Shown here: piece after piece, positions 24,850 through 44,505 of the stretch
How positions within the stretch are numbered: the first letter of the stretch is position 1
Layout: each line of letters opens with the position of its first letter
Assembly: GCA_048976585.1 (NCBI GenBank)
Contig: JBHGUY010000009.1
Coordinates: 148-64,147 of the forward strand
DNA length: 64,000 bases
Source: Sporolactobacillus sp.
Lineage (GTDB): Bacteria; Bacillota; Bacilli; Bacillales; Sporolactobacillaceae
Direction: 5' to 3'
The notes under the pieces: generated by a model
Database searches by the model: none
Told to the model about the DNA's origin: nothing
What the model saw: only the letters and a program-made list of their open reading frames with translations
Program-made: the position numbers and the translations under genes

Positions 24850-25167
24850 TCAGTGAAATAAACCCATCTTGTTCGTTTCACGCGTCACATTCACTTTGTC
24901 TCTTTTACCCGGTGTCAGAAAAAGCGTCTTTCTGAATTTTTCATCCGTGTGCGGTTCCTTGAATGTCAAGCGCTGGACCTGAACCGGAATCTTATGATAA
25001 GTGCTGACATTCGTATTGATTTCATTCGGATCAATCGTCGTTTTCTGTTTTTGAAAATGATTGGGCTGGACCTTCGTCGCACTATCTCCATCGAATCCGG
25101 CGACTACCGTGTATGAAAACAGCATGACCCCAGTCAGGATGCAGGACTTAAAGATTTTCCGTCTCAT
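24850..25167 (-). CDS. essA: T7SSb component EssA/YueC, short form lacking the C-terminal TM helix
   Basis: Position after esaA; signal-like N-terminus; KVQPN and LTF..P...FRKTLF...KMGLF resemble YueC; only 105 aa. Confidence 0.65.
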   Translation of the reverse strand: MRRKIFKSCILTGVMLFSYTVVAGFDGDSATKVQPNHFQKQKTTIDPNEINTNVSTYHKIPVQVQRLTFKEPHTDEKFRKTLFLTPGKRDKVNVTRETNKMGLFH

Positions 25168-28102
25168 CTTCCTTTCCCTCCCTGAAATAGTGAATGCCTT
25201 CCCGGATGCCAATGACCAAGAGAACTGGAATCAGCATCAAGACAAGGCCAAACATGCCCCTAATAAATGGAAGATAATCGGTTCCATTGGCGATTGCCAG
25301 ATAAACATCGGCTGCCGGATTCTGGTAGGCAAAACGATCGAGACTGTTTCTCAGCAGCGGCAGCGTGAAGAATACAACCATCGCCACGAGTACGAGAACG
25401 CCGGCCAGTTCGGATAATCGATAAGCTTCATGAATCCAGGCAGCAAGGACAACCACCAAACCGATAGTAAAGACACTCCACATTAAGACGTCGTTACCTT
25501 CCAGATTGTATTGCTGCACGCCATAGTAAATAATCGCTGCTGAACTGATAAACGCCAGTAACCCGGAAATCAACCCATTAATGGTCCAATTCAAGCGGCG
25601 ATAATAGAAGCTGAAATACCCAGTCAGGATGCCGGCAATTAGCACAACCAGTAAGGTCAGGAAAGGCTGCTGAACCGGTACTGGCTCGGTTGCGGCCGTA
25701 GCTGCGTTCTGCGTATTATTGGATGCTGCTTTTACCGGATTCCCATTCTGCAGTCCCGCCAAACCAACCGGGCTGGTCAACTGCTGATAGACATTTTGAT
25801 TACGATTGCCCGGTACGCCCGTATTACCCAATGTTTGAGCGATGGTATTACCCAGTTGCGCGGTGGCATTCACATTCTGCCCCCATGATCCGCTGAGCTG
25901 GTTGGCATCCCCCTGCACACCATTGACCATTGAGTGAACATCCTGCGAATCTTTTAGAATAGCTGATTCATTATCGGAAACATTCTGCAACCCGGCATCA
26001 AGATCACTGAGTTCGGCAAAATCACTGTCGTTCACTGTCACAGTAATCCCATTATCCGTATCCGTGTCATCAACCGTGATATCCGGCTCCGTTAAATCAA
26101 TCGGCTTAACGATCGAAGCCGTCTGCTGCTGGATCGAGGACATATTACTTGCCAGATCATTCTCGATTTTTTGCAAATCAGATTGTTGATTACTCATTTT
26201 GTCTGAATATGTTTGTATATCCTCATTATACTTTTGTTGAATATCATCTGTAGCAGCTTTAATTTTTGGGTTTATATCCTTTGGATCATGATCATTAAGA
26301 TAGTTTGATATTCCATCTATATTCGTTGACAAACTTGGAAATAATTCATTCGCTTTAGTTACCATACCATCTAAATTAGTACTTGCGTTTGTAAAATTGC
26401 TATCATCAACAGTCCTATTTGAATCATATTTACTAGAGCCTGACTCAGTTTCATATAGGTTAATCGAATCACTGTCGTTTGACAATATAGTTTTTACACT
26501 TAATAAAGCATTATAAAATGTATCTATTGAATCTTGAGTATATTTATTTGTATCAGGATTCTGTAGAAATTTTGTTGTATCAAAACCATCTGTTTGAAAT
26601 ATTGAAAAGTTTGAAATCTGAGAGATCTCATTCTGTAGCTGAAAAATATCTTGTAAAGTATAATGAGTGGTTCCTGTAGAAGTGTCGTTTTTATTTTCGC
26701 TATCTGTATTGTTAACAGCTTGATTTTGATCAGGCGATTCCCCTGTTCCTGTTCCTGTTCCTGTTCCTGTTCCTGAATTATCTTGCTCTAAAACTGGCTT
26801 CGCAATGCTTAATAAACTGTTTAATAAAGAAATATTATCATTGAGATGCGTTCCAATTGCTCGGAAAAATTTTTGAGCATCACTGAATACCGCATCATCA
26901 TTTGCTTGCTGCTTATCAATATTGCCCTGTATTGTTAGAACTTGGTTGTTTAAAGAAGTATCCGATTCTGAATCTGGTTTTAAATAATCTTGCAAATTCT
27001 TTGATATTAAATCGAAATTGGTTTTACTAGTATTAAATTGAACATTGTTGTCAGCGCCGTAATAATTAGCCAATCCATTTAATTCATCACTTGCTGATAG
27101 TTTATCGACTGCCACATTCGTATTCATCGGTTTCTGCATTGCATTTTGATATGCAGTGACCAAGCTGTTCATATTCTGTCCGGCTGCGGTGGAGGCGTCT
27201 TGTGCTTTTTGAGTAGCGTCATCGACCATCTGTTTATTGGTGTCGTCTGTTTTTTGCAGCGTTTGAATTTGCTGCTTCAGCTGATCGTTCAGTTGCTTTA
27301 ACTGATCATTCAGCTTATTCATAGACTCTGTCTGCTGATCAATCTGTTTTTTGGTCTCAGTCAATGATTGCTGCTTGCTGTCTGCACTTTTTGCAGCCTG
27401 ATTCGTCTCATCGAGCAGTTCATTAATTTGCGAGAGCTGCGAATTGAAGACCTGCGCCATATTCTGAGACGACGGCTTGTAGAAATTGGCCATGGCCTGC
27501 AGATACTGCTTGTCCTTCTTCAGCACATCGGCAAAATTTTGATTCACATAATTAATTTTATCGGAAACCACTCGCCAATAGATTTTCGAGAATTGCTGAT
27601 TAAGCGTGCCTTTTACCTTCTGGAACTCCGACTGCACCTTCGCCGAATCGACGGCGGTCAATTTCGGATTGGCTTGATAGGTGATCACTGCCGATTTCGG
27701 TTTGGACTGATTGAAACTGAAGATATTCGCGGTGAAATTCGACGGGATATAAAATGCGGCCTGATAATCCCCACTTTTCAGCCCGCTTTCAGCAACACTG
27801 CGGCTGACTGATTCCCAATCGTAATCATCCCCGGTAGAGAAAAGCGGCGCGACCTGATTGCCGAGATCCAATTTCTGACCGTCGACATTGGCCCCCTGAT
27901 CCTCATTAACCAGTGCCAAATGACCGGTTTTCGGAGTCTGGGGTGTGACCGTTTTGGCCGTGTTGCTTTTTGCCGTCTGCGGCTGCTCGGCTGGCGGTGT
28001 CAGGTAACGAGGCAGGGCACCGGATATGCAGACAATTATTATAAAGACGATAATCAATGTCCCCCACTTTTTTAGGCGACTGCTTGCCGGCTCATGCATC
28101 AT
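25148..28102 (-). CDS. esaA: T7SSb component EsaA/YueB
   Basis: N-terminal TM, LALVNEDQGA, long coiled-coil ectodomain and C-terminal multi-TM block. Confidence 0.9.
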   Translation of the reverse strand: MMHEPASSRLKKWGTLIIVFIIIVCISGALPRYLTPPAEQPQTAKSNTAKTVTPQTPKTGHLALVNEDQGANVDGQKLDLGNQVAPLFSTGDDYDWESVSRSVAESGLKSGDYQAAFYIPSNFTANIFSFNQSKPKSAVITYQANPKLTAVDSAKVQSEFQKVKGTLNQQFSKIYWRVVSDKINYVNQNFADVLKKDKQYLQAMANFYKPSSQNMAQVFNSQLSQINELLDETNQAAKSADSKQQSLTETKKQIDQQTESMNKLNDQLKQLNDQLKQQIQTLQKTDDTNKQMVDDATQKAQDASTAAGQNMNSLVTAYQNAMQKPMNTNVAVDKLSASDELNGLANYYGADNNVQFNTSKTNFDLISKNLQDYLKPDSESDTSLNNQVLTIQGNIDKQQANDDAVFSDAQKFFRAIGTHLNDNISLLNSLLSIAKPVLEQDNSGTGTGTGTGTGESPDQNQAVNNTDSENKNDTSTGTTHYTLQDIFQLQNEISQISNFSIFQTDGFDTTKFLQNPDTNKYTQDSIDTFYNALLSVKTILSNDSDSINLYETESGSSKYDSNRTVDDSNFTNASTNLDGMVTKANELFPSLSTNIDGISNYLNDHDPKDINPKIKAATDDIQQKYNEDIQTYSDKMSNQQSDLQKIENDLASNMSSIQQQTASIVKPIDLTEPDITVDDTDTDNGITVTVNDSDFAELSDLDAGLQNVSDNESAILKDSQDVHSMVNGVQGDANQLSGSWGQNVNATAQLGNTIAQTLGNTGVPGNRNQNVYQQLTSPVGLAGLQNGNPVKAASNNTQNAATAATEPVPVQQPFLTLLVVLIAGILTGYFSFYYRRLNWTINGLISGLLAFISSAAIIYYGVQQYNLEGNDVLMWSVFTIGLVVVLAAWIHEAYRLSELAGVLVLVAMVVFFTLPLLRNSLDRFAYQNPAADVYLAIANGTDYLPFIRGMFGLVLMLIPVLLVIGIREGIHYFREGKEDETENL
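26742..26775 (+). repeat. (CCTGTT)x5.7 tandem hexamer encoding a Gly-Thr linker in EsaA
   Basis: Read directly; protein SGTGTGTGTGTGE. Confidence 0.9.
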
Positions 28103-28144
28103 GAAAGACTCCCTTTCTATTGTTCAAAGCTCATATGATTAAGA

Positions 28145-31100
28145 TTAGCCGGTTTTGATTAATACTCGTTTTGCACGCGGGATCATCAGTCGGCGGTCTT
28201 GGCCTTGATGCAGCAAATAGCCAAACCCAATCGCCAGTTCACGCTCTTTGCTGACAAAAGGAAGGGTAAAGACCGATTGATCCGTTTTCTTAATCAGCAG
28301 CAAGCCATCCTTCACGGTTTTCAATTCTGTGATTAACGGATCGTAGCCTTTCCATTCCAGCGCATTGCCCGCCGCAATCACATGGAAACCGATCGATGAA
28401 TAGCGCTTCATCAGCTGAATAATCCGGTTTTGCATCGTGCCTGCCTTGCGGATAAAAGCATCCAGACTGTCAATTAAAAGATAGTAGGCAGGATAGGCGG
28501 CGGCAAGCTCCGCGCGCGGCAGATCGTCATCGAGCATTTTCTCCTTAATCTCACGTTCGCGGGCCGAGAAGACGGCCTCGATCTGATCGGCATAGAGCTC
28601 AATGGCCGTTCCGTCATCCAGATAGGTCCAATTGTTCTTTTCTGCATCTTTGGCAAAGACCAGTTCCTCGGAATCGCTGATAGCGAGTGACGCATGATTA
28701 AATCGCTGAAGCTGATCAATGATAAAACGAACCGCATTGGTTTTCCCTTTTTTCGGATCACCGATGATAATGAATGAACCAAGCTGACGGCATTCGATCC
28801 CAATCGGTTCGACCGATTCCTCATCAAGGCCAAGATAGAGCGTATCCGCGAGCAGTGCCTCATTTTCAAGGAATTCAGCCGCATCGAGCTGCTCAGGCAG
28901 CATCGGAATATGATAAAGAGTTGACGAGACCGGATGGTCCGCATTGCAGGCATCCACCGCCTCGAGCCACTTGGTCAATTGCTCGCCGGCTGTTTTCGCC
29001 TCAAATGGCAGGTAGATCTGAATGCTCTCCAGATCTTCCGTTTTGATTAATGCCCGCCCAGGGATTGCCTCGACCGTTTTCTTCACCGAACCGCTGAAAA
29101 TCGAATAGAATTCGGTTTGATCGACCATATAGTGGGACAACCGGATTGGCAGACTGGTCAGCAGATTCGGTCGAATCCCGTTGGCCCGGGACACGGTAAG
29201 AATAAATTGCAGACCGAGGCTTCCGCCTTCACGTGCCCAGCGCACGAAGGCTTCTTCCAGGGCATCAGCCTGTTCCTCGCGCAAAGCCTCAAAATTGTCG
29301 ACGGCGATTTTTAGATAGGGCAGCTTTTCACTTTCCTGCTCATTATAGAGCTCGATATTTGGTACACCGCTGCGACGGAATAGGTCCTTGCGTCGCTGAA
29401 TTTCCAGATTCAACCATTTGGAAAATTTGCTAATCTTCTCCTTTTCATCAATTCGAAAATAGTCACCCGTGTGATGCAGACGGCGCAGGGATAATAAACC
29501 TCCGCTACCGAAATCAAAGAGATAGAACTGAACCTCATCCGCCGAATAGCTTGCGGCAGCTTCCAGCAAATAAGACGAGAGAGTTGTTGTTTTTCCAAAA
29601 CCGGAAGCACCGAAAATAGCGATATTTTTTGATTTTTTCAATGAGAGATACACCGGCGTCTGCATCTGCTTTTCCGGATGATCGGCGAGGCCAAGCAGGA
29701 AGGCATCCTTTTCCCTCTCTTTTGCCACCGGCCGAACCTGATGAATCGGCAGCGGTGCCACCCATGGACTCGGCAGGCGTTCCACTCCGTTTCGCTGGCA
29801 AATGTCGGCGATGGTCTGAACAATTTGCTCCAATTCGCTGATCTTTTTCGCCTGCACCTTTTTTTTCGCGTGAGCCTCGGAAATCGGATAAAGGCCGGTA
29901 TCTTCAACAGCGTAGACATCGTCCTCGGACGTATAAATCGTTTTTTCGTATGGGGCACCGCTCCAGGCGGATTGAAAGAGTTCATAAATTTCGTTATTAC
30001 CGACCTGCAGATAGCCGCGGCCGACCTGCTTCAGGCTGGCTGCATCGCCATTGCCGAGAATATCATTACTGTCGGCACTGTCCTGAACCCGCAGCGCAAT
30101 TTTAAAACGCGAATTACTACGGATCTGATCGTCGACTACCCCCGCCGGCTTCTGTGTCGCCAGAATCAGATGAATGCCGAGGCTGCGTCCAATCCGTGCG
30201 GTTGTGACCAGCTCGCGGATAAAGTCCGGTTCCTCTTTCTTCAGTTCCGCAAATTCGTCCGAAATGATAAATAAATGCGGCATCGGTTCACTGACTTTGC
30301 CCTGACGATGGAGCAGCTGATAGTCATCAATATGGTTAATACCGTATTTTGAAAAAAGCAGCTGGCGTCTGCGCGACTCACTCTTAACAGCAGCCAATGC
30401 CCGATCGCTGAAATTTTTCTCATCATTAATATTAGTCATCGTGCCGAGCAGGTGCGGCAGCTTCTCAAAGAGCTGAGCCATGCCGCCGCCTTTAAAATCA
30501 ATCAACAAAAAGGCTACATCATGCGGATGAAAATTAACGGCGAGTGACAGGATGTAGGATTGGAGCAGCTCGCTTTTCCCGGAACCAGTTGTCCCGGCAA
30601 GCAGCCCATGCGGACCATGCGCTTTTTCATGCAGGTTAAGCTCGAGTACATCATTGCGGCTGCGCAGACCAATCGGCACAGCCAGTGACTGAATCGGATC
30701 ATGCTCACTCCAGCGCCGTTCGATATCCAGTTCATCCGCATCTTCGGCATGCATCATTTCCATAAAAGTGACATTTTCCGGAATCGAATTACTGAAGCTG
30801 CTCCGATGCTTCAGCGAAGCCAGCCGCCGGGCAAACCACTCATTCCCGGCATTCACGAAGGGATCGATCTGAAAACGCTGGCCATTTGCGACCTGCTTCA
30901 GAATCAGAACATCACCCGCATTCGCGTTCACATAACGGACGACTGTCTGTACATTTTCATTCAAATTATCTTTTGTATTCGCCAGAAAAATCGAACTGAC
31001 ACCGATTTCGGTATAATCTTTATTCAGAAATTCAGCAATTTCATGTTCATGGATCAATTGGTCGGAAGCGACAATAAATAACAAATGGGGAAGAAAGAGC

Positions 31101-32620
31101 TTCTTCTCTTTATGTTCCGTATGCTCGCGAATCTTGAGTTGTTCATAGAGACTAGGCAACAGCTGATCACGGGTCTGTTCGTTATAAACCATATTCCGGC
31201 CTTGCGTACTGAGACTATTCAGATGCGGCAGCCATTTGAGCCAGGCCCACTGGTCATACTCTTCCTGATCAAACAGCAGCACAATCCGCAAATCGTGATA
31301 GCTGTGGAAGAAGGCCAGTTGCAAAATAATCTGCTGCACCGCCGTGCGGATGATTGAGTGTTTGCCTGTCAAACCCAGCGGGCCATCGGTTAAGGCGATC
31401 GTCAGCGGCACGTCGCGAACCTGCCGGTAATGATCAACAATCGCTTTTGCTTCTACATAAAGCGCATCGAACGAACGATTGGACACTTCCTCTTCACTAG
31501 CCTCAATCTCATAATCCGCCGGCAGAGTCGTCGTTCCCAACCGGATATCCAGAAAGTCTTCCTCCTCGCGGCTTCTTTCCCAAATTCGCGGACTCAGCCC
31601 TTCTGCAAGCTCCTTCAGCGCGCTGCTGTCCGGAAATTGATAGCGCAGGACGAAGCGTTGCCGCTCGTATAGCGTGTTCAATTCTTCCCGTTTCTCGGCC
31701 AGATAATGGGTATAGTTCGTCTGCCGTTCCTTCAGGCGTTCCTTCAATTGACGCGACTCATGAAAATACTGAAAGGTCGAGGTCACAATCGTCGTCAGAA
31801 ACATGACAATCGACAGCAGCATGTAAATGCCGCTTGGCTGGACAATCAGCACAATGCCCATTACGATCAGCATCAAAAGGGGTGGCAACAGCGTCACCCA
31901 GAGATTGCGATTACCGCCCTTGTCCGGATTGGTTGGCCAGGAAAATTTGACTTTTTCTCTTGGCCGCTCATAGATCAGGCGGGGCATCCGCTGATAATCC
32001 GGATAACGATCAGCTAAGATGGTTCGTGGATTTTTCGCCGGGAAAAGAGCCGTGTGAAAGGCACTCGTTGTTCGAACAATCAACAAATCCTCAGATTGCA
32101 GCGTCCATTCACTGAGCGCCCAGCTCAGAACATCGCCGAGCGCAACCTGCGTTCGACTGCGAATGCGTCCCCCATTTAGATAAACCTGATTTCCCTCCTC
32201 GGCAAGCAGATACCAGTTCCCGCCCTCGCGCGTTAAAAGAAAACCAGGCGGCGTATTCGCTTCAGAAAATGAAAAGTCGGCTGTTTCCCCGCCAATGGTG
32301 ATTTGTTTCTTCTGACCAATATAAAAGCCCTGCGGCCGATCAGGGATAGAAAGGCCTTCGAGGATCAAAGTCAGTCGCGGCTTGTCTGAGCTCGGAAAAG
32401 TCACTGCCTTTCTTTCGGGCAAATCAAACCTTTGATCACCATTTTGACCCACCCATTTTTTCTGAGCCGTTTCCCACTTCAGATGAATTTTCTCTTCCAT
32501 TTGCACAGGTACCGTGAGCGTATCGCTTAAAGTCTGACCAATCTGAAGATCTCTTTTATGAAAAGTTGCAAGATCAATGACTTGCACAAAGTCTTCTGTA
32601 TATAGCCACAGCTTTTCCAT
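28145..32620 (-). CDS. essC: T7SSb FtsK/SpoIIIE ATPase EssC/YukB
   Basis: N-terminal FHA-like region, 2 TM, Walker A motifs GTTGSGKS, GASGFGKT and GDPKKGKT; 1491 aa. Confidence 0.95.
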   Translation of the reverse strand: MEKLWLYTEDFVQVIDLATFHKRDLQIGQTLSDTLTVPVQMEEKIHLKWETAQKKWVGQNGDQRFDLPERKAVTFPSSDKPRLTLILEGLSIPDRPQGFYIGQKKQITIGGETADFSFSEANTPPGFLLTREGGNWYLLAEEGNQVYLNGGRIRSRTQVALGDVLSWALSEWTLQSEDLLIVRTTSAFHTALFPAKNPRTILADRYPDYQRMPRLIYERPREKVKFSWPTNPDKGGNRNLWVTLLPPLLMLIVMGIVLIVQPSGIYMLLSIVMFLTTIVTSTFQYFHESRQLKERLKERQTNYTHYLAEKREELNTLYERQRFVLRYQFPDSSALKELAEGLSPRIWERSREEEDFLDIRLGTTTLPADYEIEASEEEVSNRSFDALYVEAKAIVDHYRQVRDVPLTIALTDGPLGLTGKHSIIRTAVQQIILQLAFFHSYHDLRIVLLFDQEEYDQWAWLKWLPHLNSLSTQGRNMVYNEQTRDQLLPSLYEQLKIREHTEHKEKKLFLPHLLFIVASDQLIHEHEIAEFLNKDYTEIGVSSIFLANTKDNLNENVQTVVRYVNANAGDVLILKQVANGQRFQIDPFVNAGNEWFARRLASLKHRSSFSNSIPENVTFMEMMHAEDADELDIERRWSEHDPIQSLAVPIGLRSRNDVLELNLHEKAHGPHGLLAGTTGSGKSELLQSYILSLAVNFHPHDVAFLLIDFKGGGMAQLFEKLPHLLGTMTNINDEKNFSDRALAAVKSESRRRQLLFSKYGINHIDDYQLLHRQGKVSEPMPHLFIISDEFAELKKEEPDFIRELVTTARIGRSLGIHLILATQKPAGVVDDQIRSNSRFKIALRVQDSADSNDILGNGDAASLKQVGRGYLQVGNNEIYELFQSAWSGAPYEKTIYTSEDDVYAVEDTGLYPISEAHAKKKVQAKKISELEQIVQTIADICQRNGVERLPSPWVAPLPIHQVRPVAKEREKDAFLLGLADHPEKQMQTPVYLSLKKSKNIAIFGASGFGKTTTLSSYLLEAAASYSADEVQFYLFDFGSGGLLSLRRLHHTGDYFRIDEKEKISKFSKWLNLEIQRRKDLFRRSGVPNIELYNEQESEKLPYLKIAVDNFEALREEQADALEEAFVRWAREGGSLGLQFILTVSRANGIRPNLLTSLPIRLSHYMVDQTEFYSIFSGSVKKTVEAIPGRALIKTEDLESIQIYLPFEAKTAGEQLTKWLEAVDACNADHPVSSTLYHIPMLPEQLDAAEFLENEALLADTLYLGLDEESVEPIGIECRQLGSFIIIGDPKKGKTNAVRFIIDQLQRFNHASLAISDSEELVFAKDAEKNNWTYLDDGTAIELYADQIEAVFSAREREIKEKMLDDDLPRAELAAAYPAYYLLIDSLDAFIRKAGTMQNRIIQLMKRYSSIGFHVIAAGNALEWKGYDPLITELKTVKDGLLLIKKTDQSVFTLPFVSKERELAIGFGYLLHQGQDRRLMIPRAKRVLIKTG

Positions 32621-35693: not shown

Positions 35694-36151
35694 TGTTCAG
35701 CGCCTCCGGTGATCAGGGCATGAATATCAAAATAGATATCTCCATTGATCTCAAGACAGACATGATAAAAGGGTTCAGCAATGGTTAATCGTTGCTGTTC
35801 GGCAAAATCATTGATTTCTTGATACGATTGTTCAAGCGGTATCGATTCCTCATAATGACGTTTCCATAAAGTATGAGGCAGATGCAGCGATTCTTGAAAT
35901 TGGAGCGAATCCTCGCTTATTTCCACTGGCGAACTGAGCGGAAGCAGCAAGGTATATTTTTTGAAAGCCGGTTCATTTTTCACATCCTGAATCATCAAAA
36001 CGAGTGGACCATTCGGATAAACGCCGCCCTCCAGAGCCACCTGTCTCAGCGCTTCGCCTTCTTCATACCACTTGTCACCGGAACAAATCACCGACCGGCT
36101 CAATAAATTTAATAAGACCAGCGAACCCTGCTGTACTTCCACTTTAAGCAC
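35690..36151 (-). CDS. DUF5085-like protein, paralog 1
   Basis: NLLSR, GGVYPNGPLV, KRHY, PFYHV...NGD..FDIH; GTG start; own TATAAT at 36174-36179. Confidence 0.6.
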   Translation of the reverse strand: MLKVEVQQGSLVLLNLLSRSVICSGDKWYEEGEALRQVALEGGVYPNGPLVLMIQDVKNEPAFKKYTLLLPLSSPVEISEDSLQFQESLHLPHTLWKRHYEESIPLEQSYQEINDFAEQQRLTIAEPFYHVCLEINGDIYFDIHALITGGAEQ

Positions 36152-37323: not shown

Positions 37324-38088
37324 TCACAAATCGGAAAGATCGAATGATTCTTCTTCTCTTACTGCATTAAACGATTTAAAACGAAATTTGCAGTAAATGA
37401 TATACAAATATTCAATGATTCCGACTCCAAATAAAAAAAGAGAAACAACAAAACCGACAATGACGATTAAAACTGTTGAGGCATCTTGTCCCCAATATTT
37501 TGAAGCAATAATAGAGAGTAGTACTCCTGCAGCTGAGAATGGTAGAATTGCTGAGAAACGACTCATGCCCTCACTGTATTGCTTATGAAAGAACCCTCTT
37601 CCTTCTTTCCTAAATTCTCCTTTTTTCAGCAGAAAATAACTTCTGATTAAGGAAAGAACGAAAATCAACAAGTTGATTATCATATACAAGAGGATTACAA
37701 GATTAAACGGAAGATTCGCGTACGAATATTTCCACGCAAACAAAGTCGCACACGACAAATCGATTGCTAATTCGATAAAAGAAAGAATCAGTAAAACAAG
37801 ACCGCTTTTCTGGAAAGTAACACTGACCTTTTTTAATAGAAAGGGCAGTGAGACAATGGCCAGAGCAAGCAGACTATACCATTGCCCATAAATTAGTGAG
37901 ATCCAGCTCTTGTAAAAGGAACCATGAGCTACGATTGCAGCTTGCTGACCACAATAGATAAATAGAGCACTAATTAAATCCACTACCAGAAGAAATTTGC
38001 CCACTCGACTCGGATTTAACCTGCCAGATATTAATCCTTTTTTGAACATTGCGAAATCAGATTCTTGAAATTTATCAAGTAAAGTCAT
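37324..38088 (-). CDS. Multi-pass membrane putative LXG-toxin immunity protein (member 5, subfamily B)
   Basis: 254 aa; close paralog of 38149..38913. Confidence 0.75.
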   Translation of the reverse strand: MTLLDKFQESDFAMFKKGLISGRLNPSRVGKFLLVVDLISALFIYCGQQAAIVAHGSFYKSWISLIYGQWYSLLALAIVSLPFLLKKVSVTFQKSGLVLLILSFIELAIDLSCATLFAWKYSYANLPFNLVILLYMIINLLIFVLSLIRSYFLLKKGEFRKEGRGFFHKQYSEGMSRFSAILPFSAAGVLLSIIASKYWGQDASTVLIVIVGFVVSLFLFGVGIIEYLYIIYCKFRFKSFNAVREEESFDLSDL

Positions 38089-38148: not shown

Positions 38149-38913
38149 TCACAAATCGGACAGATCGAATGATTGCTCTTCTTTTACCGCATTAAACGAT
38201 TTAAAACGAAATTTGCAGTAAATGACAAACAAAAATTCTATGATCCCGACCCCGAATACAACAAGAGAACCAATAAAGCCAGCAATGACAACTAGAATTG
38301 TTAAGGCATCCTGTCCCCAATATTTTGAAGCAATAATAGAGAGTAGCACACCTCCTGCTGAAAATGGAAGGATCGCCGAAAACCTACTTATTCCCTCACT
38401 GTATTGCTTATGAAAGAACCCTCTTCCCTCTTTCCTAAATTCTCCCTTTTTAAGCAAAAAATAACTTCTAATTAACGAAAGTACAAAAGTCAGTACGATG
38501 ATTAGCATATACAAAAAGAATAAGAAATTAAACGGGAGAGCAGCATTCTCATCTCTCCAGACAAACAAAGTCGCATAGGATAAACTAACCATCAATTCAC
38601 TATAAGACAGGATAAGTAAAACAAGACTGCTTTTCTGGAAAGTAACACTGACCTTTTTTAATAGAAAGAGCAGTGAGACGATGGCCAGGGCGAGCAAACT
38701 ATACCATTGCCCATTAATTAGTGAAATCCAGCTCTGATAAAATGAACCGTGAATCGAAGTTAAAGCCAGTTGCTCACCAAAAATGAACAGAGCACTGCCC
38801 AAATCCACTCCCAGAAGAAATTTTCCCAAACGAACCGGATTTAACCTGCCCGATACTAATCCATTTTTGAACATTGCGAAATCAGATTCTTGAAATTTAT
38901 CAAATAAAGTCAT
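38149..38913 (-). CDS. Multi-pass membrane putative LXG-toxin immunity protein (member 4, subfamily B)
   Basis: MTLFDKFQESDFAMFK..GRLNP, KKGEFRKEGRGFF, YCKFRFKSF. Confidence 0.75.
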   Translation of the reverse strand: MTLFDKFQESDFAMFKNGLVSGRLNPVRLGKFLLGVDLGSALFIFGEQLALTSIHGSFYQSWISLINGQWYSLLALAIVSLLFLLKKVSVTFQKSSLVLLILSYSELMVSLSYATLFVWRDENAALPFNFLFFLYMLIIVLTFVLSLIRSYFLLKKGEFRKEGRGFFHKQYSEGISRFSAILPFSAGGVLLSIIASKYWGQDALTILVVIAGFIGSLVVFGVGIIEFLFVIYCKFRFKSFNAVKEEQSFDLSDL

Positions 38914-39080: not shown

Positions 39081-39914
39081 TTAACTTTTTTTCTTCTTCG
39101 CTTCTCTCTTCATTTTATCCCGCTCTTTTTCCCAATTAAGATGAGCTTGCTCTGCTTTTTTATCCTTAGCGTCAATAATTATCTGTTGCTCAGGAGTTAG
39201 TCTGAACTCGGGAAAGCGCAACTGACAATAGAGAAAGCTAAAAGAAGAAGGTGCGACAAGGTAATCTAAAAGAAGTGTCATAATTAATAAGGCGACCCAA
39301 ATCGTAATTAAAGTTACCGTATTATTGGCAAATCTCGGAATAATGAAGCCCAGAGCCACAGCTGCACCAATAATACTTGAGCCAAAAAGAGGAATTGCTG
39401 TTCCTTTGCCCTGACCTAAATGATTTGAATCTCGGTAGATCCCTTTTTTTGCACGAACGAGAAAACGAACAATGGCAGAAAGAAGAATAGACAGCGCAAA
39501 TAAAAAATAGATCAGCAGAAATAAATAATAATTCAGTGTCGAAATACAAATTTTTGTATAAATCAGGAAAACTACCGCGAAATCAAAACACATTTTTGGC
39601 AAGCAAATAAAGGCAGTGAGCAGGACTGTCCTCTGCAGATGAAAACTAACTTTTCTTATAAAAAATAAAAAGGCTAATACAAAAAAAATAGTTGAAACGC
39701 TCCCGTCAGGAATAAGTAAGGGTAAAAGCCAGTCATGAAATGATTGTCCAATCGAAAATGAGCCAAAGAATGACGCTATGAGTAAACCCATCGATATTAC
39801 AGGACAAATGTAAATTAACCTGCTCAAATTTATTAGATTAAAGTCACCATGACGAATACTTTCCAGAAAAAAAGCAAAATCTCTATAATTCAGTTCATTC
39901 AATTTTTTCATCAT
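39081..39914 (-). CDS. Multi-pass membrane putative LXG-toxin immunity protein (member 3, subfamily A)
   Basis: 277 aa; long identical blocks shared with 41059..41895. Confidence 0.75.
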   Translation of the reverse strand: MMKKLNELNYRDFAFFLESIRHGDFNLINLSRLIYICPVISMGLLIASFFGSFSIGQSFHDWLLPLLIPDGSVSTIFFVLAFLFFIRKVSFHLQRTVLLTAFICLPKMCFDFAVVFLIYTKICISTLNYYLFLLIYFLFALSILLSAIVRFLVRAKKGIYRDSNHLGQGKGTAIPLFGSSIIGAAVALGFIIPRFANNTVTLITIWVALLIMTLLLDYLVAPSSFSFLYCQLRFPEFRLTPEQQIIIDAKDKKAEQAHLNWEKERDKMKREAKKKKS

Positions 39915-40025: not shown

Positions 40026-40840
40026 TTATCTTTTCTTCTTTTTTCTCTCCCTCTCTCTTTCCCAGTTAAGGTGAGCTTGCTCATTTCTTTTATCTTCAGC
40101 ATCAAGAGCTGCCTGCTGATCAGCGGTTAACCTGAACTCAGGAAAGCGCAACTGACAGTACATAAAAATAAAAGGATTTGGAGCAAGAAGCAAATTTGAA
40201 ATATAAGAAAGAAATAATGTCCCACTCCACGCAACAATTAAGATAATTGTACTCCCAGAATGCCTGTCGATTATAAAACCTAAAGCTACTCCCAAAACAA
40301 TCAATCCAGAGCCCAATAAGGAGATATTACTTGTTTTTGCAACATTCCTTTGTTTTCCGTGTAACCGATATAATCCTTAGCGTACATTATGGAAGGTCCG
40401 GCTGAGGGAATATATCAGCACAGCCAAGGATAGTGCACAATAAACTATCAATAATAAATAGTAGGGAACAGATGGAAAATTGATTTTTGTATAAATCAAA
40501 AAAAGACCGCTAAATCGAAACTCATTTTCAACGGTGCTATAGATGCCACCGTAAGTTCTGTTTTTTGGAATCGAAAGCTCATAGAGTTTATGGAAAACAA
40601 AATTGACATAATCAGAAAAATGATTGAAATCGATCCGTCCGCGTAAAGAAAAGGAACAAAAGTCTGATGAAAAGATTGCCCTACAGTAAGAGATCCCAAA
40701 TAAGCCATTCCAAGAGCAAGCAAGGAAATAACAGAATAAATATAAAGGCCCTTCCCCATTCTTGTGGGATTTAAATCACCCATCCGATATCTCTTAAGGT
40801 AATAAGAAAAATCTTCCTGAGAAATATGACTCCTAATCAA
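40026..40840 (-). pseudogene. Decayed multi-pass membrane immunity-like paralog (member 2, subfamily A)
   Basis: Frameshift in a T7 run (40498-40504) and in-frame TAA at 40377-40379; both halves align with members 1 and 3. Confidence 0.85.
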
Positions 40841-41058: not shown

Positions 41059-41895
41059 TTAACTTTTTTTCTTCTTCGCTTCTCTCTTCATTTTATCCCG
41101 TTTTTTTTCCAAATTAAGATAGGCTTGCTCTGCCTTTTTACCCTTAGCGTCAATAACTGCCTGTTGCTCAGGGGTTAATCGGAACTTGCGAAAGCGCATC
41201 TGACAATACAGGAAGCTGAAAGAAGAAGGCGCGACAAGGTAATCTAAAAGAAGCGTCAAAATCAAAGTGGTAATCCAGATCATTATCAAGGTCACCGTAT
41301 TACTGGAATATCTCGGAATAATGAAGCCCAGAGCCACGGCTGCGCCGATAATACTCGAACCAAAAAGAGGAATTGCTGTTCCTTTGCCCTGACCTAAATG
41401 ATTTGAATCTCGATAGAACCCCTTTTTGGCATGAATAAAAAATCGGACAATGGCAGAAAGAAGAATGGAAAGTGCAAATAAAGAATAGATTACCAAGAAC
41501 AAATAATAATTCAGTGCTGGAATACTTATTTTTGTGCAAATTAAGAAAAATACTGCAAAATCAAAACACATTTTTGGCGGCCAAATAAAGGCAGTTAAAA
41601 GAACTGTTTTCTGCAAACAAAAACTAACTTTTCTCATAAGAAATAAAAGAGCAAACATAAGAAATATAATTGAGATGATCCCGTCAACAGCTAGAAACGG
41701 AAGATACTCTTTATGAAAAGATTGTCCAATCGTTATAGACCCAAAGAATGAAGCTATAAGTGTTCCTAGAGATAGAGCAGGATAAATATAGATCAGTCTG
41801 CCCAATGTGATTGGGTTGGAATTGCCTTGACGAGTACTCTTAAGAAAAAAAGCAAAATCTGTCTGATTCAGTTCATTCAATTTTTTCATAATCAA
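41059..41895 (-). CDS. Multi-pass membrane protein, likely cognate immunity for the LXG toxin (member 1)
   Basis: Starts ~20 nt after the toxin stop; 5-6 TM; charged C-terminal tail. Confidence 0.75.
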   Translation of the reverse strand: MIMKKLNELNQTDFAFFLKSTRQGNSNPITLGRLIYIYPALSLGTLIASFFGSITIGQSFHKEYLPFLAVDGIISIIFLMFALLFLMRKVSFCLQKTVLLTAFIWPPKMCFDFAVFFLICTKISIPALNYYLFLVIYSLFALSILLSAIVRFFIHAKKGFYRDSNHLGQGKGTAIPLFGSSIIGAAVALGFIIPRYSSNTVTLIMIWITTLILTLLLDYLVAPSSFSFLYCQMRFRKFRLTPEQQAVIDAKGKKAEQAYLNLEKKRDKMKREAKKKKS

Positions 41896-41913
41896 TCCCT
41901 ATTACCTCTCCAA

Positions 41914-43410
41914 TTAATGGAACCAAGAAATGATTTTATCGCTAATATGATGCAATCCATCTTTCGCCCAATCAATAGCACTTTTCTTTTTATAAATTGG
42001 ATAATTTAAAATAAATCCCAATGTCAATCCCGCAACAACACCAACAGCCATTCCAGCCGGTCCAAGTGCTACTCCCATTTCACCTCCCGCCAGTGCGGAA
42101 GCAGAAGCAGCCCCTACAGCTTCGCCAACTCCTGATGTTACTGCACCAGTCACGGTGTCTGTAGCAATATCATCCGTAACACGAGCGATATTTTTTGCGC
42201 CCATTTTTTTATTTCTATACTGATTGATATCTGAGGCGTATTCGGCAGCCGTTCCGACACCTGTCAATACTTTTCCAGATTTTGCAATATAACCGACATC
42301 ATTCCAGTTGTCAAATGTTTTAAAGGGTTTCATTAAATCAGTTAAATTTTTTTTGAACCCATTTGTAAAAGCTTGTTTCCGCGCTGTAGCATTCAAAGCA
42401 TAGTTAACTTCATCAGATTCATTCATTAAGGCACTGACGCGTTTTGTATAATTTCCCGAATTTTTCTTTTGGATCCGTATATATTGCCCGTTTGAGAAAT
42501 TGACATTAAATCTGCCTTTCACTTTTGAATGACCGTATCTATCCAAAAAGATTTTCATTGCTTTTTTATTACCTGTAACGCGTATATAATCGCCCTTCTT
42601 CACAATTCGCAGGCCTTTGATGCTGGCAACGATCTCCGGTAACGCCTTTAGGACTTCTTTCGTTTTATCAATTCCAAGACTTATACGCTCCGAACGATCA
42701 CTGTCGCCTTCCTTTTTCGCTTTTTCGATTTGTCTCGTTTTTTCTAATTGCGCCGTCTTTACTTTTAGTCTTTTCCCCAGTTCTGTTTTTGCGAAGCTGC
42801 CGGCCTGATAAAAATTGGTTTGGCCAAAATGAGGACTGTAACTCGTCTTGATCTTGGTCATCGCCTGTTCCAGCGTATTCAGCAGCGGCATGAGCTCGCC
42901 GGCATAATTCACTGAAGCAAAGCTTTCAAAATGCGTCTTCAGCTGAGTGATATCCTTTTCCTGCTGCGTCACATCATGAGTCAATCCGTCGGCGGACGGC
43001 ACGCGAAAAAAAGCAACATCGCTGACGGAACGGACGTCCGCCGCCAGCTGACGGTGAATGGTGTCAAAGTGATCCTTGAGCCGGTCGATGTCCTTGTGCA
43101 GTTCGCCGAGATGTTCGGAACGAATGACCGTATCCGGAGAGGCATCAACGTGGCTCTTAAATTGACTGAGCATTTTTTTGTAGGTCTGGGGCAGACTTTC
43201 ACTAATTTCACTCAAAGCCTTCAGAATGGGCAGGTGAACCTCTGAAAAATAGTTTTTGATACTGACGGCTGTAGCTCCCTGGATGGCGCTCAGAGAGCAA
43301 AGATCCTCGATCTCTCCCTGCACGGTCTGCAGTGCGCTGCGCGAGGAACTAGCCTCTGCGGCGAGTTCCGTCCCAATCTTATTCACTTCAGCTAAACGAA
43401 TTTTTGGCAT
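41914..43410 (-). CDS. LXG-domain polymorphic toxin with C-terminal glycine-zipper hydrophobic region
   Basis: N-terminal AIQGATAVSIKNYFSEVHLPIL LXG pattern; C-terminal GEAVG..GVALGPAGMAVGVVAGLTLG. Confidence 0.85.
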   Translation of the reverse strand: MPKIRLAEVNKIGTELAAEASSSRSALQTVQGEIEDLCSLSAIQGATAVSIKNYFSEVHLPILKALSEISESLPQTYKKMLSQFKSHVDASPDTVIRSEHLGELHKDIDRLKDHFDTIHRQLAADVRSVSDVAFFRVPSADGLTHDVTQQEKDITQLKTHFESFASVNYAGELMPLLNTLEQAMTKIKTSYSPHFGQTNFYQAGSFAKTELGKRLKVKTAQLEKTRQIEKAKKEGDSDRSERISLGIDKTKEVLKALPEIVASIKGLRIVKKGDYIRVTGNKKAMKIFLDRYGHSKVKGRFNVNFSNGQYIRIQKKNSGNYTKRVSALMNESDEVNYALNATARKQAFTNGFKKNLTDLMKPFKTFDNWNDVGYIAKSGKVLTGVGTAAEYASDINQYRNKKMGAKNIARVTDDIATDTVTGAVTSGVGEAVGAASASALAGGEMGVALGPAGMAVGVVAGLTLGFILNYPIYKKKSAIDWAKDGLHHISDKIISWFH

Positions 43411-43423: not shown

Positions 43424-43714
43424 TTACTTTGTCTGTAATTCCGAGTCAATTTTTCGGGCCAATTGTTGATCGACTTTCACCATATCCGTGCCAACTTTTG
43501 TCAGCTTGCTGACTTCCATCTGCAGAGACTGATGATAATCCTGCAGGAGCTTCTGCCACTTATCAATGGCCTGGCACAATTCCTTGATGTTTCCTAAAGA
43601 AGTGTCCGAAAGCTGGGTATCCAGCGTTTTTCCCTTATCTAGCGCTTCAGATGCCCGCTTTAATTGATCAATTTTTAAAGTATAGGCGTGGGCATCAAAT
43701 TCGATTGGGCTCAT
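43424..43714 (-). CDS. LXG-associated small helical partner (YwqI/YxiC-like)
   Basis: 96 aa helical; C-terminal MVKVDQQLA export-arm-like motif; directly before the toxin. Confidence 0.7.
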   Translation of the reverse strand: MSPIEFDAHAYTLKIDQLKRASEALDKGKTLDTQLSDTSLGNIKELCQAIDKWQKLLQDYHQSLQMEVSKLTKVGTDMVKVDQQLARKIDSELQTK

Positions 43715-43725: not shown

Positions 43726-44124
43726 CTATTTATTCTTTAGTGCGTTAAGTGAGGCATGCAGAGAGTGGATATCCGTCTGACATAAATCAAGACTCGCATT
43801 CAACGTGCGGATCTCATCCTGTACATCATCCTTCAGCCCACGGACGGCGTTCAGAAAAAGATGATAATCCGGCAAAGTGTCCGAATCCATTTGACCACTG
43901 AACTTTTTTCGTTTCGTGCCGGCCCATTCCGAAACCGGATTGTAGAGTGATTGAAATTTAGACTGATTGGCCTCAAAAGCGGATAAATGTTCGGTGATTT
44001 GGGCGATTAAATGCTTGAGCTGGCTGATCTTATCATTCAGCACCCGCTCTTGCCTCTGAAAAGTATCAATATCACGACGTAAATTCCCTCGCACCACATT
44101 CTCGGACTCTATCTGCATCTGCAT
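43726..44124 (-). CDS. LXG-associated helical partner (YwqH/DUF5082-like)
   Basis: 132 aa coiled-coil with central WAG (SEWAGTKRKKF). Confidence 0.7.
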   Translation of the reverse strand: MQMQIESENVVRGNLRRDIDTFQRQERVLNDKISQLKHLIAQITEHLSAFEANQSKFQSLYNPVSEWAGTKRKKFSGQMDSDTLPDYHLFLNAVRGLKDDVQDEIRTLNASLDLCQTDIHSLHASLNALKNK

Positions 44125-44152
44125 TTCTCCTTATACCTTTTTTAAAGGAAGT

Positions 44153-44196
44153 AAAAACAAAAACACCGAAACCCCGCTCGGAGCCCCGGTGTTTCC
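44153..44196 (-). terminator. Terminator/attenuator after esxA
   Basis: AAACACCG...CGGTGTTT stem followed by a T-tract on the minus strand. Confidence 0.7.
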
Positions 44197-44211
44197 GTGT
44201 AAAAGGATCGA

Positions 44212-44505
44212 TTAATTGTTGATCTGGCTGGCAATCTGCCGGTCAGTATCTTCCAGAATCGTTGCCGTTTTCGCCAATTGATGATTGATGTCTTCTAGAA
44301 GCTGCTGCATCTGATTGAATGACGGGCGTAATCTCTCATATTGAGATTTGAAGGCCTGGCTGGATGCACCTTCCCAGACCTGAGCAAGCTGGTTAATCAT
44401 ACCGTCAAGCCGTCCGATTAATTCACCGGTATTCGATGATTCCTGTCCATATTTTGCTGCATAGCTCCTCAATTCTTCCGGTGTCAGCCGAATTTGTCCT
44501 GCCAT
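44212..44505 (-). CDS. esxA: WXG100 protein EsxA/YukE
   Basis: MAGQIRLTPEEL, central WEG, 97 aa; strong SD GGAGG. Confidence 0.95.
   Translation of the reverse strand: MAGQIRLTPEELRSYAAKYGQESSNTGELIGRLDGMINQLAQVWEGASSQAFKSQYERLRPSFNQMQQLLEDINHQLAKTATILEDTDRQIASQINN

What the first reader, a model, noticed from the sequence alone, without database searches (positions are those of the whole stretch)
24850..44505. T7SSb island with the whole effector/immunity module nested between esxA and esaB
Seen: esxA, terminator, two partner genes, LXG toxin, six membrane paralogs, three DUF5085-like genes, then esaB-essB-essC-esaA-essA. Established: the core order is that of B. subtilis yukE-D-C-B-yueB-C, where yukE and yukD are adjacent and LXG modules are elsewhere; staphylococcal and streptococcal variable regions follow essC. 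Inference: the ~10 kb esxA-esaB interval is a distinct exchange hotspot, fed by esxA read-through, and carries two candidate immunity families for one toxin. This is the best candidate for an undescribed system here.
Basis: partly seen in the sequence, partly recalled or inferred. Interest (0 to 1): 0.82.

Follow-up and report, generated by a model that had tools for sequence, protein, structure and literature searches.

The report
T7SS locus with upstream toxin cassette
A Sporolactobacillus type VII secretion locus carries a known kind of antibacterial membrane-toxin cassette (like EsxX of S. aureus and TelE of S. gallolyticus) in an unusual place, between esxA and yukD; the place and one protein family look new, the mechanism does not.

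Summary
On the minus strand lie esxA, a strong hairpin terminator, two small helical partner genes, an LXG toxin with a C-terminal glycine zipper, six 6-TM paralogs (two are frameshifted pseudogenes), three DUF5085-type genes, a 485-nt gap, then yukD-essB-essC-esaA-essA, all intact. The organism is a Sporolactobacillus sp. from a sugarcane-bagasse metagenome.

One glycine-zipper LXG toxin with two immunity families is already described for S. aureus EsxX (ExiAB are DUF5085; ExiCD are polytopic) and S. gallolyticus TelE/TipE. This is that kind of cassette.

What differs:
- **Position.** The cassette is upstream of yukD. In 72 of 72 other Bacillales loci esxA abuts yukD.
- **Membrane family.** It matches no Pfam model.
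- **DUF5085 genes.** There are three, not two.

The site varies across Sporolactobacillaceae. It is empty in seven lineages. Four genomes hold the same cassette between two near-identical esxA copies, and S. mangiferae holds a different LXG cassette. Relics in S. shoreae and S. mangiferae suggest that single-esxA nesting arose by loss of the yukD-proximal esxA copy. Within the species, the toxin C-terminus and the membrane array vary, while the DUF5085 trio does not. Read-through of the esxA terminator is plausible but untested.

The parts
44639..44667 (-). sigma-70-like promoter candidate upstream of esxA (TAGGCA-17-TATAAT)
   Evidence: Consensus scan gave 10 of 12 matches. This is a consensus match only; it was not tested.
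44212..44505 (-). esxA (WXG100, 97 aa), the only esxA copy at this locus
   Evidence: PF06013 78 bits and TIGR03930 84 bits. It is 78-95% identical to the EsxA proteins of other Sporolactobacillaceae.
44157..44198 (-). intrinsic-terminator-like hairpin plus U-run just after esxA (probable leaky terminator or attenuator)
   Evidence: 19 pairs, dG -27.3 kcal/mol, z -4.3. An equivalent hairpin follows every esxA copy in the genus, including copies that sit about 60 nt from yukD.
43726..44124 (-). YwqH-like small helical partner (Lap-type), contains a WxG turn
   Evidence: PF16888 44 bits. It is 47% identical to the orthologues in L007, L011 and L087.
43424..43714 (-). second small helical partner (TIGR04197 / DUF3130 / DUF5344-like)
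   Evidence: TIGR04197 35.6 bits, above its cut-off of 26. DUF5344 E 1e-3.
41914..43410 (-). LXG polymorphic toxin, 498 aa; LXG domain at aa 1-190 and a C-terminal membrane-toxin domain
   Evidence: PF04740 79 bits. PDB 8gmh_B LXG domain E 9e-12. The C-terminal part past aa ~235 drops from ~98% to roughly 20% identity in a second strain's toxin, P0018.
42016..42144 (-). extended glycine/alanine zipper (aa 423-465) inside the only strongly hydrophobic segment of the toxin
   Evidence: Six overlapping [GAS]xxxGxxx[GAST] matches and one hydrophobic segment at aa 449-467. The motif is shared with toxins in L007, L087, L089 and L095.
41059..41889 (-). Mem1, 6-TM protein, subfamily A (candidate cognate membrane immunity)
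   Evidence: Six hydrophobic segments. No Pfam hit even at E<=10. Family motifs are SGRxxP, KGxFRxGG and YCKxRFxSF.
40026..40840 (-). Mem2, subfamily A pseudogene (three ORF pieces, two frameshifts)
   Evidence: The sequence is identical in an independent Logan contig of run X1.
39081..39914 (-). Mem3, 6-TM, subfamily A (77% identical to Mem1)
38149..38913 (-). Mem4, 6-TM family, subfamily B
   Evidence: It forms an 825-nt tandem unit with Mem5 at 84-89% DNA identity.
37324..38088 (-). Mem5, 6-TM family, subfamily B
   Evidence: A contig of run X2 joins 37330 to 38153, which is one unit fewer.
36459..37158 (-). Mem6, subfamily C, single frameshift near 36713 (pseudogene); absent from the related strains L003/L004
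   Evidence: Identical in the X1 contig.
35690..36151 (-). DUF5085-type protein a (paralogue of c)
   Evidence: PF16895 31 bits. hhalign against c gives 99.8% probability.
35238..35693 (-). DUF5085 protein b (canonical member; candidate ExiB/TipE-like zipper binder)
   Evidence: PF16895 115 bits. It overlaps its neighbours by 4 nt and 20 nt, which suggests translational coupling.
34778..35257 (-). DUF5085-type protein c
   Evidence: PF16895 24.5 bits, below the gathering score. hhalign against b gives 97.8% probability.
34275..34777 (-). non-coding gap where relatives carry a second esxA; no recognisable esxA relic
   Evidence: tblastn and nhmmer found nothing. No Rfam match. The gap is about 96% conserved in L003. 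It holds weak promoter-like and hairpin matches only.
34035..34274 (-). yukD / esaB (79 aa)
   Evidence: NF052661 106 bits and PF08817.
32681..34024 (-). yukC / essB (447 aa)
   Evidence: PF10140 309 bits.
28145..32620 (-). yukB / essC (1491 aa, intact)
   Evidence: FtsK_SpoIIIE 192 bits in two stretches, plus further P-loop hits.
25148..28102 (-). yueB / esaA (984 aa), with a strain-variable, low-GC central part
   Evidence: TIGR03929 153 bits. The segment 26191-27092 does not align with L003, although the flanks are 95-96% identical.
24850..25167 (-). yueC / essA (105 aa, short form typical of the genus)
   Evidence: PF10661 25 bits. The same 105-107 aa length occurs in L003, L004, L085 and L091.

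Best explanation
This is an intact Bacillus-type T7SSb locus (yukE-D-C-B-yueB-yueC order) of a Sporolactobacillus species. An EsxX/TelE-type antibacterial effector cassette sits directly upstream of the core operon.

How it most likely works:
1. Inferred: transcription starts at the esxA promoter, and a fraction passes the leaky esxA terminator into the cassette.
2. By homology: the two small helical proteins bind the LXG domain and form the rod-shaped targeting complex that EssC recognises.
3. By homology: the toxin's C-terminal glycine-zipper domain inserts into membranes and depolarises or permeabilises competitor cells.
4. Inferred from ExiAB and TipE: inside the producer, the soluble DUF5085 proteins (b as the zipper binder, a and c as partners) sequester the zipper before export.
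5. Inferred from ExiCD, TsaI and array behaviour: after export, 6-TM proteins of a family with no Pfam model protect the producer's membrane. The extra, diverged and decayed copies are orphan immunity genes against variants made by other strains.

Evolution (inferred):
- The cassette travels or persists with its own esxA copy at its 5' end, placed upstream of the resident esxA-yukD.
- In this lineage the resident, yukD-proximal esxA was lost, which leaves the cassette 'nested'.
- In other lineages most or all of the cassette was deleted, perhaps between the esxA repeats, which gives the empty site.
- Within the species, recombination swaps the toxin C-terminus together with the membrane array.
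For: Shown here:
- Gene identities.
- Glycine zipper at aa 423-465 in the toxin's only strongly hydrophobic segment.
- One toxin C-terminal family is shared by the window, P0018, L007, L087, L089 and L095.
- That toxin family, the 6-TM family and DUF5085 genes occur together in three independent T7SS settings: Sporolactobacillaceae; L089, upstream of the core; and L095, downstream of essC.
- The LXG N-terminus is ~98% identical and the C-terminus roughly 20% identical between two strains.
- Between strains the divergent block runs from inside the LXG gene (window 42707) to just upstream of DUF5085-a (36276). The trio and the core are about 96% identical.
- The array varies: Mem6 is absent in L003/L004, a contig of X2 has one Mem4/5 unit fewer, and two copies are pseudogenes.
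- esxA plus its upstream region forms direct repeats of 89-99% identity around the cassette in L007, L011, L087 and L012.
- L010 has a DUF5085-c relic upstream of its single esxA (E 1e-6). L009 has an esxA 3' relic next to yukD (E 8e-10).
- Cassette scaffold proteins are as diverged from their orthologues (45-61%) as EssB is (54-57%).
- A hairpin follows every esxA copy in the genus.

From the literature:
- EsxX, LapX3/4, ExiAB (DUF5085, binds the zipper) and ExiCD (polytopic, protects against the toxin from outside): PMC12744356.
- TelE and TipE: PMC10434224.
- The seven-protein TelE complex: bioRxiv 10.64898/2026.03.12.711312.
Against: - No experiment or RNA data exist for this organism.
- Direct sequence homology of the toxin domain to EsxX or TelE could not be tested, because no reference sequences were at hand.
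- The membrane family gives no hit to DUF5079 or DUF5080, the ExiC/ExiD families.
- In TelE, the 6-TM neighbour did not protect E. coli and is part of a pre-secretion complex. The membrane proteins here may therefore have a role other than, or besides, immunity.
- The DUF5085 trio does not co-vary with the toxin C-terminus between strains. That is unexpected if binding is as specific as reported for TipE.
- The window's gap holds no esxA relic, so loss of a second esxA in this lineage is inferred from relatives only.
- The paralog order inside the array is not confirmed by an independent assembly.
Confidence: 0.72

Rival explanations
1. The nested, single-esxA arrangement is the ancestral one. 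The cassette was inserted between esxA and yukD. In S. putidus, CQH2019, KGMB 08714 and Terrilactibacillus, esxA with its promoter was later duplicated next to yukD, restoring tight esxA-core coupling.
For: - The two esxA copies within each of those genomes are 89-99% identical. That fits a recent duplication as well as it fits gene conversion.
- The window's gap carries no esxA relic.
Against: - S. mangiferae has a truncated esxA 3' end beside yukD, downstream of a different LXG cassette headed by a full esxA.
- S. shoreae has a DUF5085-c relic upstream of its only esxA.
- The two-copy state also occurs in another genus, Terrilactibacillus.
Confidence: 0.2
2. The 6-TM paralogs are not immunity proteins. 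They are membrane partners or chaperones that hold the toxin's hydrophobic C-terminus before or during export, as reported for Gallo_0563 in the TelE complex. The DUF5085 proteins then provide all the protection.
For: [quoted passage not shown]
- It binds the TelE C-terminal domain in a seven-protein complex.
- The first membrane gene always directly follows the toxin gene.
Against: - Six copies in three subfamilies, two pseudogenes, copy-number differences between strains, and co-variation with the toxin C-terminus are the signature of immunity arrays.
- ExiCD protect against externally delivered EsxX, and orphan copies are found in non-producers (PMC12744356).
Confidence: 0.2
3. The locus is a decaying or silent remnant. 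It has lost its core-proximal esxA, carries pseudogenes in the array, and has a strong terminator that isolates esxA, so the cassette and perhaps the core are poorly expressed.
For: - Two frameshifted paralogs.
- A strong terminator.
- A 485-nt gap with only weak promoter-like matches.
- In S. mangiferae, essC lies in three ORFs.
Against: - All five core genes, the toxin, both partners, four membrane genes and three DUF5085 genes are intact.
- The trio and core are about 96% conserved between strains.
- The same hairpin precedes yukD in species with an ordinary locus.
Confidence: 0.08

Closest known systems
S. aureus ST398 EsxX module (LapX3-LapX4-EsxX-ExiC-ExiA-ExiB-ExiD), Alcock et al., Cell Rep 2025 (PMC12744356)
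   Same: - Two small helical partners upstream of an LXG toxin with an extended C-terminal glycine zipper.
- Soluble DUF5085 proteins and 6-TM membrane proteins encoded downstream.
- Two immunity families for one toxin.
   Different: - The module here is upstream of yukD, not downstream of essC.
- There are three DUF5085-type genes, not two.
- The membrane proteins match neither DUF5079 nor DUF5080 and form an array of six with two pseudogenes.
- Homology of the toxin domain to EsxX was not tested.
S. gallolyticus TelE/TipE module (Gallo_0559-0565), PMC10434224 and bioRxiv 10.64898/2026.03.12.711312
   Same: - The gene order is helical partners, then a glycine-zipper LXG toxin, then a 6-TM protein, then DUF5085 genes.
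- The toxin C-terminus varies between strains.
   Different: - TelE has a third partner that binds its central region; none is seen here.
- TelE has a single 6-TM gene.
- The TelE cassette follows essC.
- TipE is reported to be variant-specific, whereas the DUF5085 trio here is conserved between strains with different toxin C-termini.
B. subtilis yukE-yukD-yukC-yukB-yueB-yueC operon and the ywqH-ywqI-ywqJ-ywqK LXG module
   Same: - The core gene order and families are the same.
- The YwqH-like and DUF5344-like partner pair before an LXG toxin is the ywqHIJ pattern.
   Different: - In B. subtilis, and in 72 of 72 other Bacillales loci surveyed, yukE abuts yukD.
- No DUF5085-type or 6-TM-family gene lies within 10 kb of the core in those 72 loci. 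Where an LXG gene lies nearby, it is downstream of essA or upstream on the opposite strand.
S. aureus TspA with TsaI immunity arrays; Listeria ess variable regions and LXG hotspots (PMC10327511)
   Same: - Membrane-depolarising T7SS toxin followed by several polytopic immunity paralogs, including orphans.
- Defined chromosomal sites that are either occupied or empty.
   Different: - The membrane protein family is different.
- The site lies between esxA and yukD and is associated with esxA duplication.

Membership tests
T7SSb, Bacillus Yuk type | WXG100 EsxA/YukE | tested here: met
   PF06013 78 bits; TIGR03930 84 bits.
T7SSb, Bacillus Yuk type | Core set YukD, YukC/EssB, EssC (multi-domain FtsK/SpoIIIE ATPase), EsaA/YueB and EssA/YueC, all intact | tested here: met
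   NF052661 106 bits; PF10140 309 bits; PF01580 192 bits in two stretches plus further P-loop hits; TIGR03929 153 bits; PF10661 25 bits, just above its cut-off of 24.1, for a short 105-aa form.
T7SSb, Bacillus Yuk type | Contiguous order yukE-yukD-yukC-yukB-yueB-yueC | tested here: not met
   The order is kept, but about 9.9 kb separates esxA from yukD. In 72 of 72 other Bacillales loci the distance is 287 nt or less.
LXG polymorphic toxin with Lap-type partners | N-terminal LXG domain | tested here: met
   PF04740 79 bits; PDB 8gmh_B E 9e-12.
LXG polymorphic toxin with Lap-type partners | Two small helical partner genes directly upstream | tested here: met
   PF16888 44 bits; TIGR04197 35.6 bits.
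LXG polymorphic toxin with Lap-type partners | C-terminal domain exchanged between strains while the LXG part is conserved | tested here: met
   P0018 compared with the window toxin: ~98% identity over aa 1-235, roughly 20% after. The DNA breakpoint is at window 42707.
LXG polymorphic toxin with Lap-type partners | EssC-dependent secretion | not testable with these tools
   This needs a secretome comparison of wild type and an essC mutant.
EsxX/TelE-type glycine-zipper toxin module | Extended glycine zipper near the C-terminus | tested here: met
   Six overlapping motif matches at aa 423-465. The motif is conserved across the toxin family.
EsxX/TelE-type glycine-zipper toxin module | Sequence homology of the toxin domain to EsxX or TelE | not tested
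Pfam has no model for this domain. The PDB sequence search found only the LXG domain.
EsxX/TelE-type glycine-zipper toxin module | Soluble DUF5085 proteins encoded downstream | tested here: met
   Three genes: PF16895 31, 115 and 24.5 bits; hhalign 97.8-99.8%. The same pairing occurs in L089 and L095.
EsxX/TelE-type glycine-zipper toxin module | Polytopic (6-TM) membrane protein(s) encoded downstream | tested here: met
   Hydropathy gives six segments for Mem1 and Mem3. For Mem4, Mem5 and Mem6 the same topology is inferred mainly from their full-length alignment with Mem1 and Mem3.
EsxX/TelE-type glycine-zipper toxin module | Membrane proteins belong to DUF5079/DUF5080 (ExiC/ExiD) | tested here: not met
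   No Pfam hit for the window's four intact paralogs and three relatives from L007 and L089 at E<=10, nor for 50 family members at E<=0.01.
EsxX/TelE-type glycine-zipper toxin module | Membrane depolarisation, with compartment-specific neutralisation | not testable with these tools
   This needs expression and membrane-potential assays.
DUF5085 / GyrI-like (SHS2) fold | Duplicated SHS2 fold with a hydrophobic groove | tested here: inconclusive
   The AlphaFold2 model of DUF5085-b from a three-sequence alignment reached a mean pLDDT of only 46, so no fold search was run. No PDB sequence match.

The most novel reading that the evidence does not exclude
The stretch just upstream of yukD in Sporolactobacillaceae is a distinct T7SSb cassette site in which esxA itself, with its promoter and attenuator, serves as the portable 5' homology arm and expression signal. 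Cassettes arrive with an esxA copy, are bracketed by esxA repeats, and are lost or fixed by recombination or decay of one repeat.

Within that cassette:
- A previously unmodelled 6-TM family (about 95 clusters at 50% identity) is the outside-facing immunity.
- A conserved three-member DUF5085 complex neutralises diverged zipper variants without variant specificity.
Probability: 0.3. Interest if true: 0.5.

Novelty: new variant of a known kind. Interest (0 to 1): 0.38.

Why it matters
- **Second variable site.** T7SSb effector cassettes are described downstream of essC or at distant hotspots. Here a cassette sits upstream of the core, inside the esxA-yukD junction that is otherwise invariant in Bacillales. 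It appears to use esxA duplication.
- **Reach of the dual-immunity scheme.** The locus extends the recently described scheme of a soluble DUF5085 neutraliser plus polytopic membrane protection to a distant genus. It involves a membrane family that no Pfam model covers and a third DUF5085 paralogue.
- **A specificity test case.** The membrane array co-varies with the toxin C-terminus between strains while the DUF5085 trio does not. That gives a natural test of which immunity layer carries specificity.

None of this changes the known mechanism. It is a useful comparative case, not a new system.

Tried and rejected
- **esxA relic in the gap.** tblastn with ten EsxA proteins and nhmmer with a 14-sequence esxA DNA profile found nothing in 34275-34777 (best E 0.04-0.2). 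The L007 control scored E 6e-180.
- **Rfam.** No family matched in 24000-46000 at gathering thresholds.
- **Word-indexed protein searches.** The searches with Mem1 and with the toxin C-terminus returned only the window's own proteins, plus one strain variant, P0018. The exhaustive profile search was needed to find the Mem family.
- **Pfam on the Mem family.** 50 members at E<=0.01 and seven members at E<=10 gave scattered single chance hits only, and no DUF5079, DUF5080 or DUF443.
- **PDB sequence search with DUF5085-b.** No match.
- **AlphaFold2 of DUF5085-b.** Only window sequences were accepted. The three-paralogue alignment gave a mean pLDDT of 46, so no fold search was run.
- **RNA-seq runs for the esxA region.** None were listed.
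- **Truncated EssA.** I considered that EssA might be a truncation artefact. I rejected this because the same 105-107 aa form occurs across the genus.
- **Frameshifts as assembly errors.** This is unlikely, because an independent short-read assembly of run X1 is identical at both sites. That run is probably the window's own source, so it is not an independent sample.

Full report
**1. What is there**

All genes of the finding lie on the minus strand at the stated coordinates. Family searches identify the cassette genes as follows:
- esxA at 44212-44505: WXG100, 78 bits.
- A YwqH-like helical protein at 43726-44124.
- A TIGR04197/DUF5344-like helical protein at 43424-43714.
- A 498-aa LXG protein at 41914-43410.
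- Three DUF5085-type proteins at 34778-36151.

They identify the core as yukD, essB, essC (1491 aa), esaA and essA. All core genes are intact.

A 19-pair hairpin followed by a U-run lies 14 nt after the esxA stop codon. Its dG is -27.3 kcal/mol and its z-score is -4.3.

Six homologous 6-TM genes lie between the toxin and the DUF5085 genes. They fall into three subfamilies: A is Mem1, Mem2 and Mem3; B is Mem4 and Mem5; C is Mem6. Mem2 lies in three pieces and Mem6 has one frameshift. Both defects are identical in an independent short-read assembly of run X1, a sugarcane-bagasse metagenome. That assembly breaks inside the repeats, so the array order rests on the window's own assembly.

A 485-nt non-coding gap precedes yukD. 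The organism is a Sporolactobacillus sp. Its EssB is 98% identical to that of MAG WK066_bin.1 and 53-60% identical to other species of the genus.

**2. What kind of module it is**

The toxin's only strongly hydrophobic segment carries an extended glycine/alanine zipper at aa 423-465. The literature search for DUF5085 led to three papers that describe this architecture.
- **S. aureus EsxX** is an LXG toxin with a glycine zipper that depolarises membranes. It has two Lap partners. A DUF5085 heterodimer, ExiAB, sequesters the zipper in the cytoplasm. Two 6-TM proteins, ExiCD, protect from outside (PMC12744356).
- **S. gallolyticus TelE** is neutralised by the DUF5085 protein TipE (PMC10434224).
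- **The TelE complex** contains seven proteins, including a 6-TM protein.

Profile-profile comparison shows that the three DUF5085-type genes here are truly related. The a-c pair scores 99.8% and the c-b pair 97.8%. Protein b is the canonical member at 115 bits.

The membrane family matches no Pfam model, including DUF5079 and DUF5080, even at E<=10. It is small: 95 clusters at E<=1e-3 among 1.84 billion representatives. Its conserved motifs are SGRxxP, KGxFRxGG and YCKxRFxSF.

Two distant members of the membrane family have the same neighbours. In L089 the order is a 109-aa helical protein, a toxin, Mem, DUF5085 and DUF5085, upstream of an essC with an FHA domain. In L095 the same set lies downstream of essC. 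The toxins there share the window toxin's C-terminal domain. Toxin, Mem and DUF5085 therefore form a conserved functional unit.

**3. Is the position unusual and variable?**

A genome-wide scan with an EssB alignment returned 80 loci. I annotated them with iterated profile searches seeded from the window's proteins.

In all 72 non-Sporolactobacillaceae loci, esxA lies 287 nt or less upstream of yukD. None of them has a DUF5085 or Mem gene within 10 kb. Where an LXG gene is nearby, it is downstream of essA or upstream on the opposite strand.

Within Sporolactobacillaceae the junction varies.
- **Empty.** S. laevolacticus, S. shoreicorticis, S. shoreae, S. terrae, THM19-2 and two metagenomic lineages. 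THM19-2 has a Tox-GHH LXG module upstream of esxA.
- **Same cassette between two esxA copies.** S. putidus, CQH2019, KGMB 08714 and Terrilactibacillus S3-3. The repeats cover esxA and about 250 nt upstream of it, and are 89-99% identical.
- **A different LXG cassette after a single esxA.** S. mangiferae.
- **The window species.**

Two relics were found.
- S. shoreae keeps the 3' end of DUF5085-c upstream of its only esxA (E 1e-6).
- S. mangiferae keeps the last ~75 nt of an esxA, plus the esxA-yukD spacer, beside yukD (E 8e-10).

The window's gap shows no relic.

Cassette scaffold proteins are 45-61% identical to their orthologues, which is similar to EssB at 54-57%. The toxin C-terminus (33%) and the Mem proteins (27-40%) are more diverged.

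The most economical reading is an old cassette headed by its own esxA and placed upstream of the resident esxA-yukD. Either the resident esxA was later lost (the window, and partly S. mangiferae), or the cassette was.

**4. Variation between strains**

A second strain (SRR26215900) has the same esxA, the same partners and the same LXG N-terminus at ~98% identity. Its toxin C-terminus is only roughly 20% identical. DNA identity collapses at window 42707 and resumes at 36276, just before DUF5085-a. The trio and the core are about 96% identical.

That strain and the MAG lack Mem6 and end the array with a diverged B-type gene. A low-coverage contig from a food metagenome has one Mem4/5 unit fewer.

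The exchange unit within the species is therefore the toxin C-terminus plus the membrane array, not the whole interval. The DUF5085 trio does not co-vary. This was not expected from the reported specificity of TipE, and it remains unexplained.

**5. Expression**

Only 33 nt separate the end of the terminator's stem from the ywqH start, and no promoter-like site lies there. Every esxA copy in the genus is followed by an equivalent hairpin. This includes copies about 60 nt from yukD in species with an ordinary locus.

The hairpin therefore probably acts as a leaky terminator or attenuator throughout the genus. That agrees with what the review PMC10765036 reports for esxA transcription in other species. 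Read-through into the cassette is plausible but untested, because no RNA runs were found. How the core operon is transcribed here is open. It could be by continuation across about 10 kb, or from the gap, which holds only weak matches.

**6. Verdict**

The system is a known kind: an EsxX/TelE-like cassette on a Yuk-type T7SSb. Four features look new.
- Its site at the esxA-yukD junction.
- The association of that site with esxA duplication.
- A 6-TM family with no Pfam model.
- A third DUF5085 paralogue.

No paper in the held library links Sporolactobacillus to type VII secretion. Published variable regions and hotspots lie elsewhere. Interest is moderate.

Noticed in passing
window 26191-27092 (inside esaA): The central part of EsaA/YueB does not align with the otherwise 95-96% identical strain L003. 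It is also markedly AT-rich: GC is 0.34 in 26001-27000, against 0.46-0.49 in the flanks. The extracellular domain looks strain-variable. It may be under diversifying pressure, since YueB is a phage receptor in B. subtilis (my own knowledge).
   Followed up: partly
window 42286-42314 (minus strand, inside the LXG gene): This is the best sigma-70-like match of the region (TTGACA-17-TATATT, 11 of 12). It lies inside the toxin ORF, upstream of the zipper-coding part and of the membrane array. It could drive immunity genes independently of the toxin, or it could be chance, because promoter-like sites in the region are no more frequent than in shuffles.
   Followed up: no
window 34778-36151 compared with 36276-42707: Between strains of the species, the toxin C-terminus and the membrane array are swapped, while the DUF5085 trio stays 94-99% identical at the protein level. 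This is unexpected if DUF5085 binding is variant-specific, as reported for TipE.
   Followed up: partly
window 44820-45482 (minus strand): A Crp/Fnr-family regulator (cNMP_binding plus HTH_Crp_2) lies directly upstream of esxA on the same strand. It is conserved in both related contigs, L001 and L002. It is a candidate regulator of the locus.
   Followed up: no
window 24850-25167; L003, L004, L085, L091: EssA is only 105-107 aa across the genus and covers only positions 18-99 of the 147-position Pfam model. Apparently the C-terminal part is missing in the whole genus.
   Followed up: partly
window 23056-24530 (minus strand): An ABC ATPase and a multi-pass membrane protein follow essA directly, and the same pair follows essA in L003/L004. 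In other Sporolactobacillus species this position holds small WXG-like genes, DUF5081 genes and an Ntox15 toxin (L085, L087, L091). The usual downstream variable region is therefore absent from the window.
   Followed up: no
L089 6456-9686 and L095 5340-9085: Two distant genomes (GCA_038008625.1, 7.4 Mb, and GCA_045310695.1) carry T7SS loci with an FHA-domain EssC. Both hold the same set: a toxin C-terminal family member, a Mem gene and two DUF5085 genes. The toxins give no Pfam LXG hit. In one genome the set is upstream of the core, and in the other it is downstream of essC.
   Followed up: partly
L009 11327-15804 and L012 (whole locus): essC of S. mangiferae lies in three ORFs, so its T7SS may be inactive. 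The Terrilactibacillus S3-3 chromosome shows frameshifts in nearly every gene of the locus, which looks like sequencing error in that assembly.
   Followed up: no
L086 4519-7597: Sporolactobacillus sp. THM19-2 has a YwqH-like / DUF5344 / LXG(PT-TG, Tox-GHH) / small-protein module upstream of its single esxA. An HTH_7 recombinase fragment lies between the module and esxA. This is another use of the neighbourhood upstream of the core.
   Followed up: no
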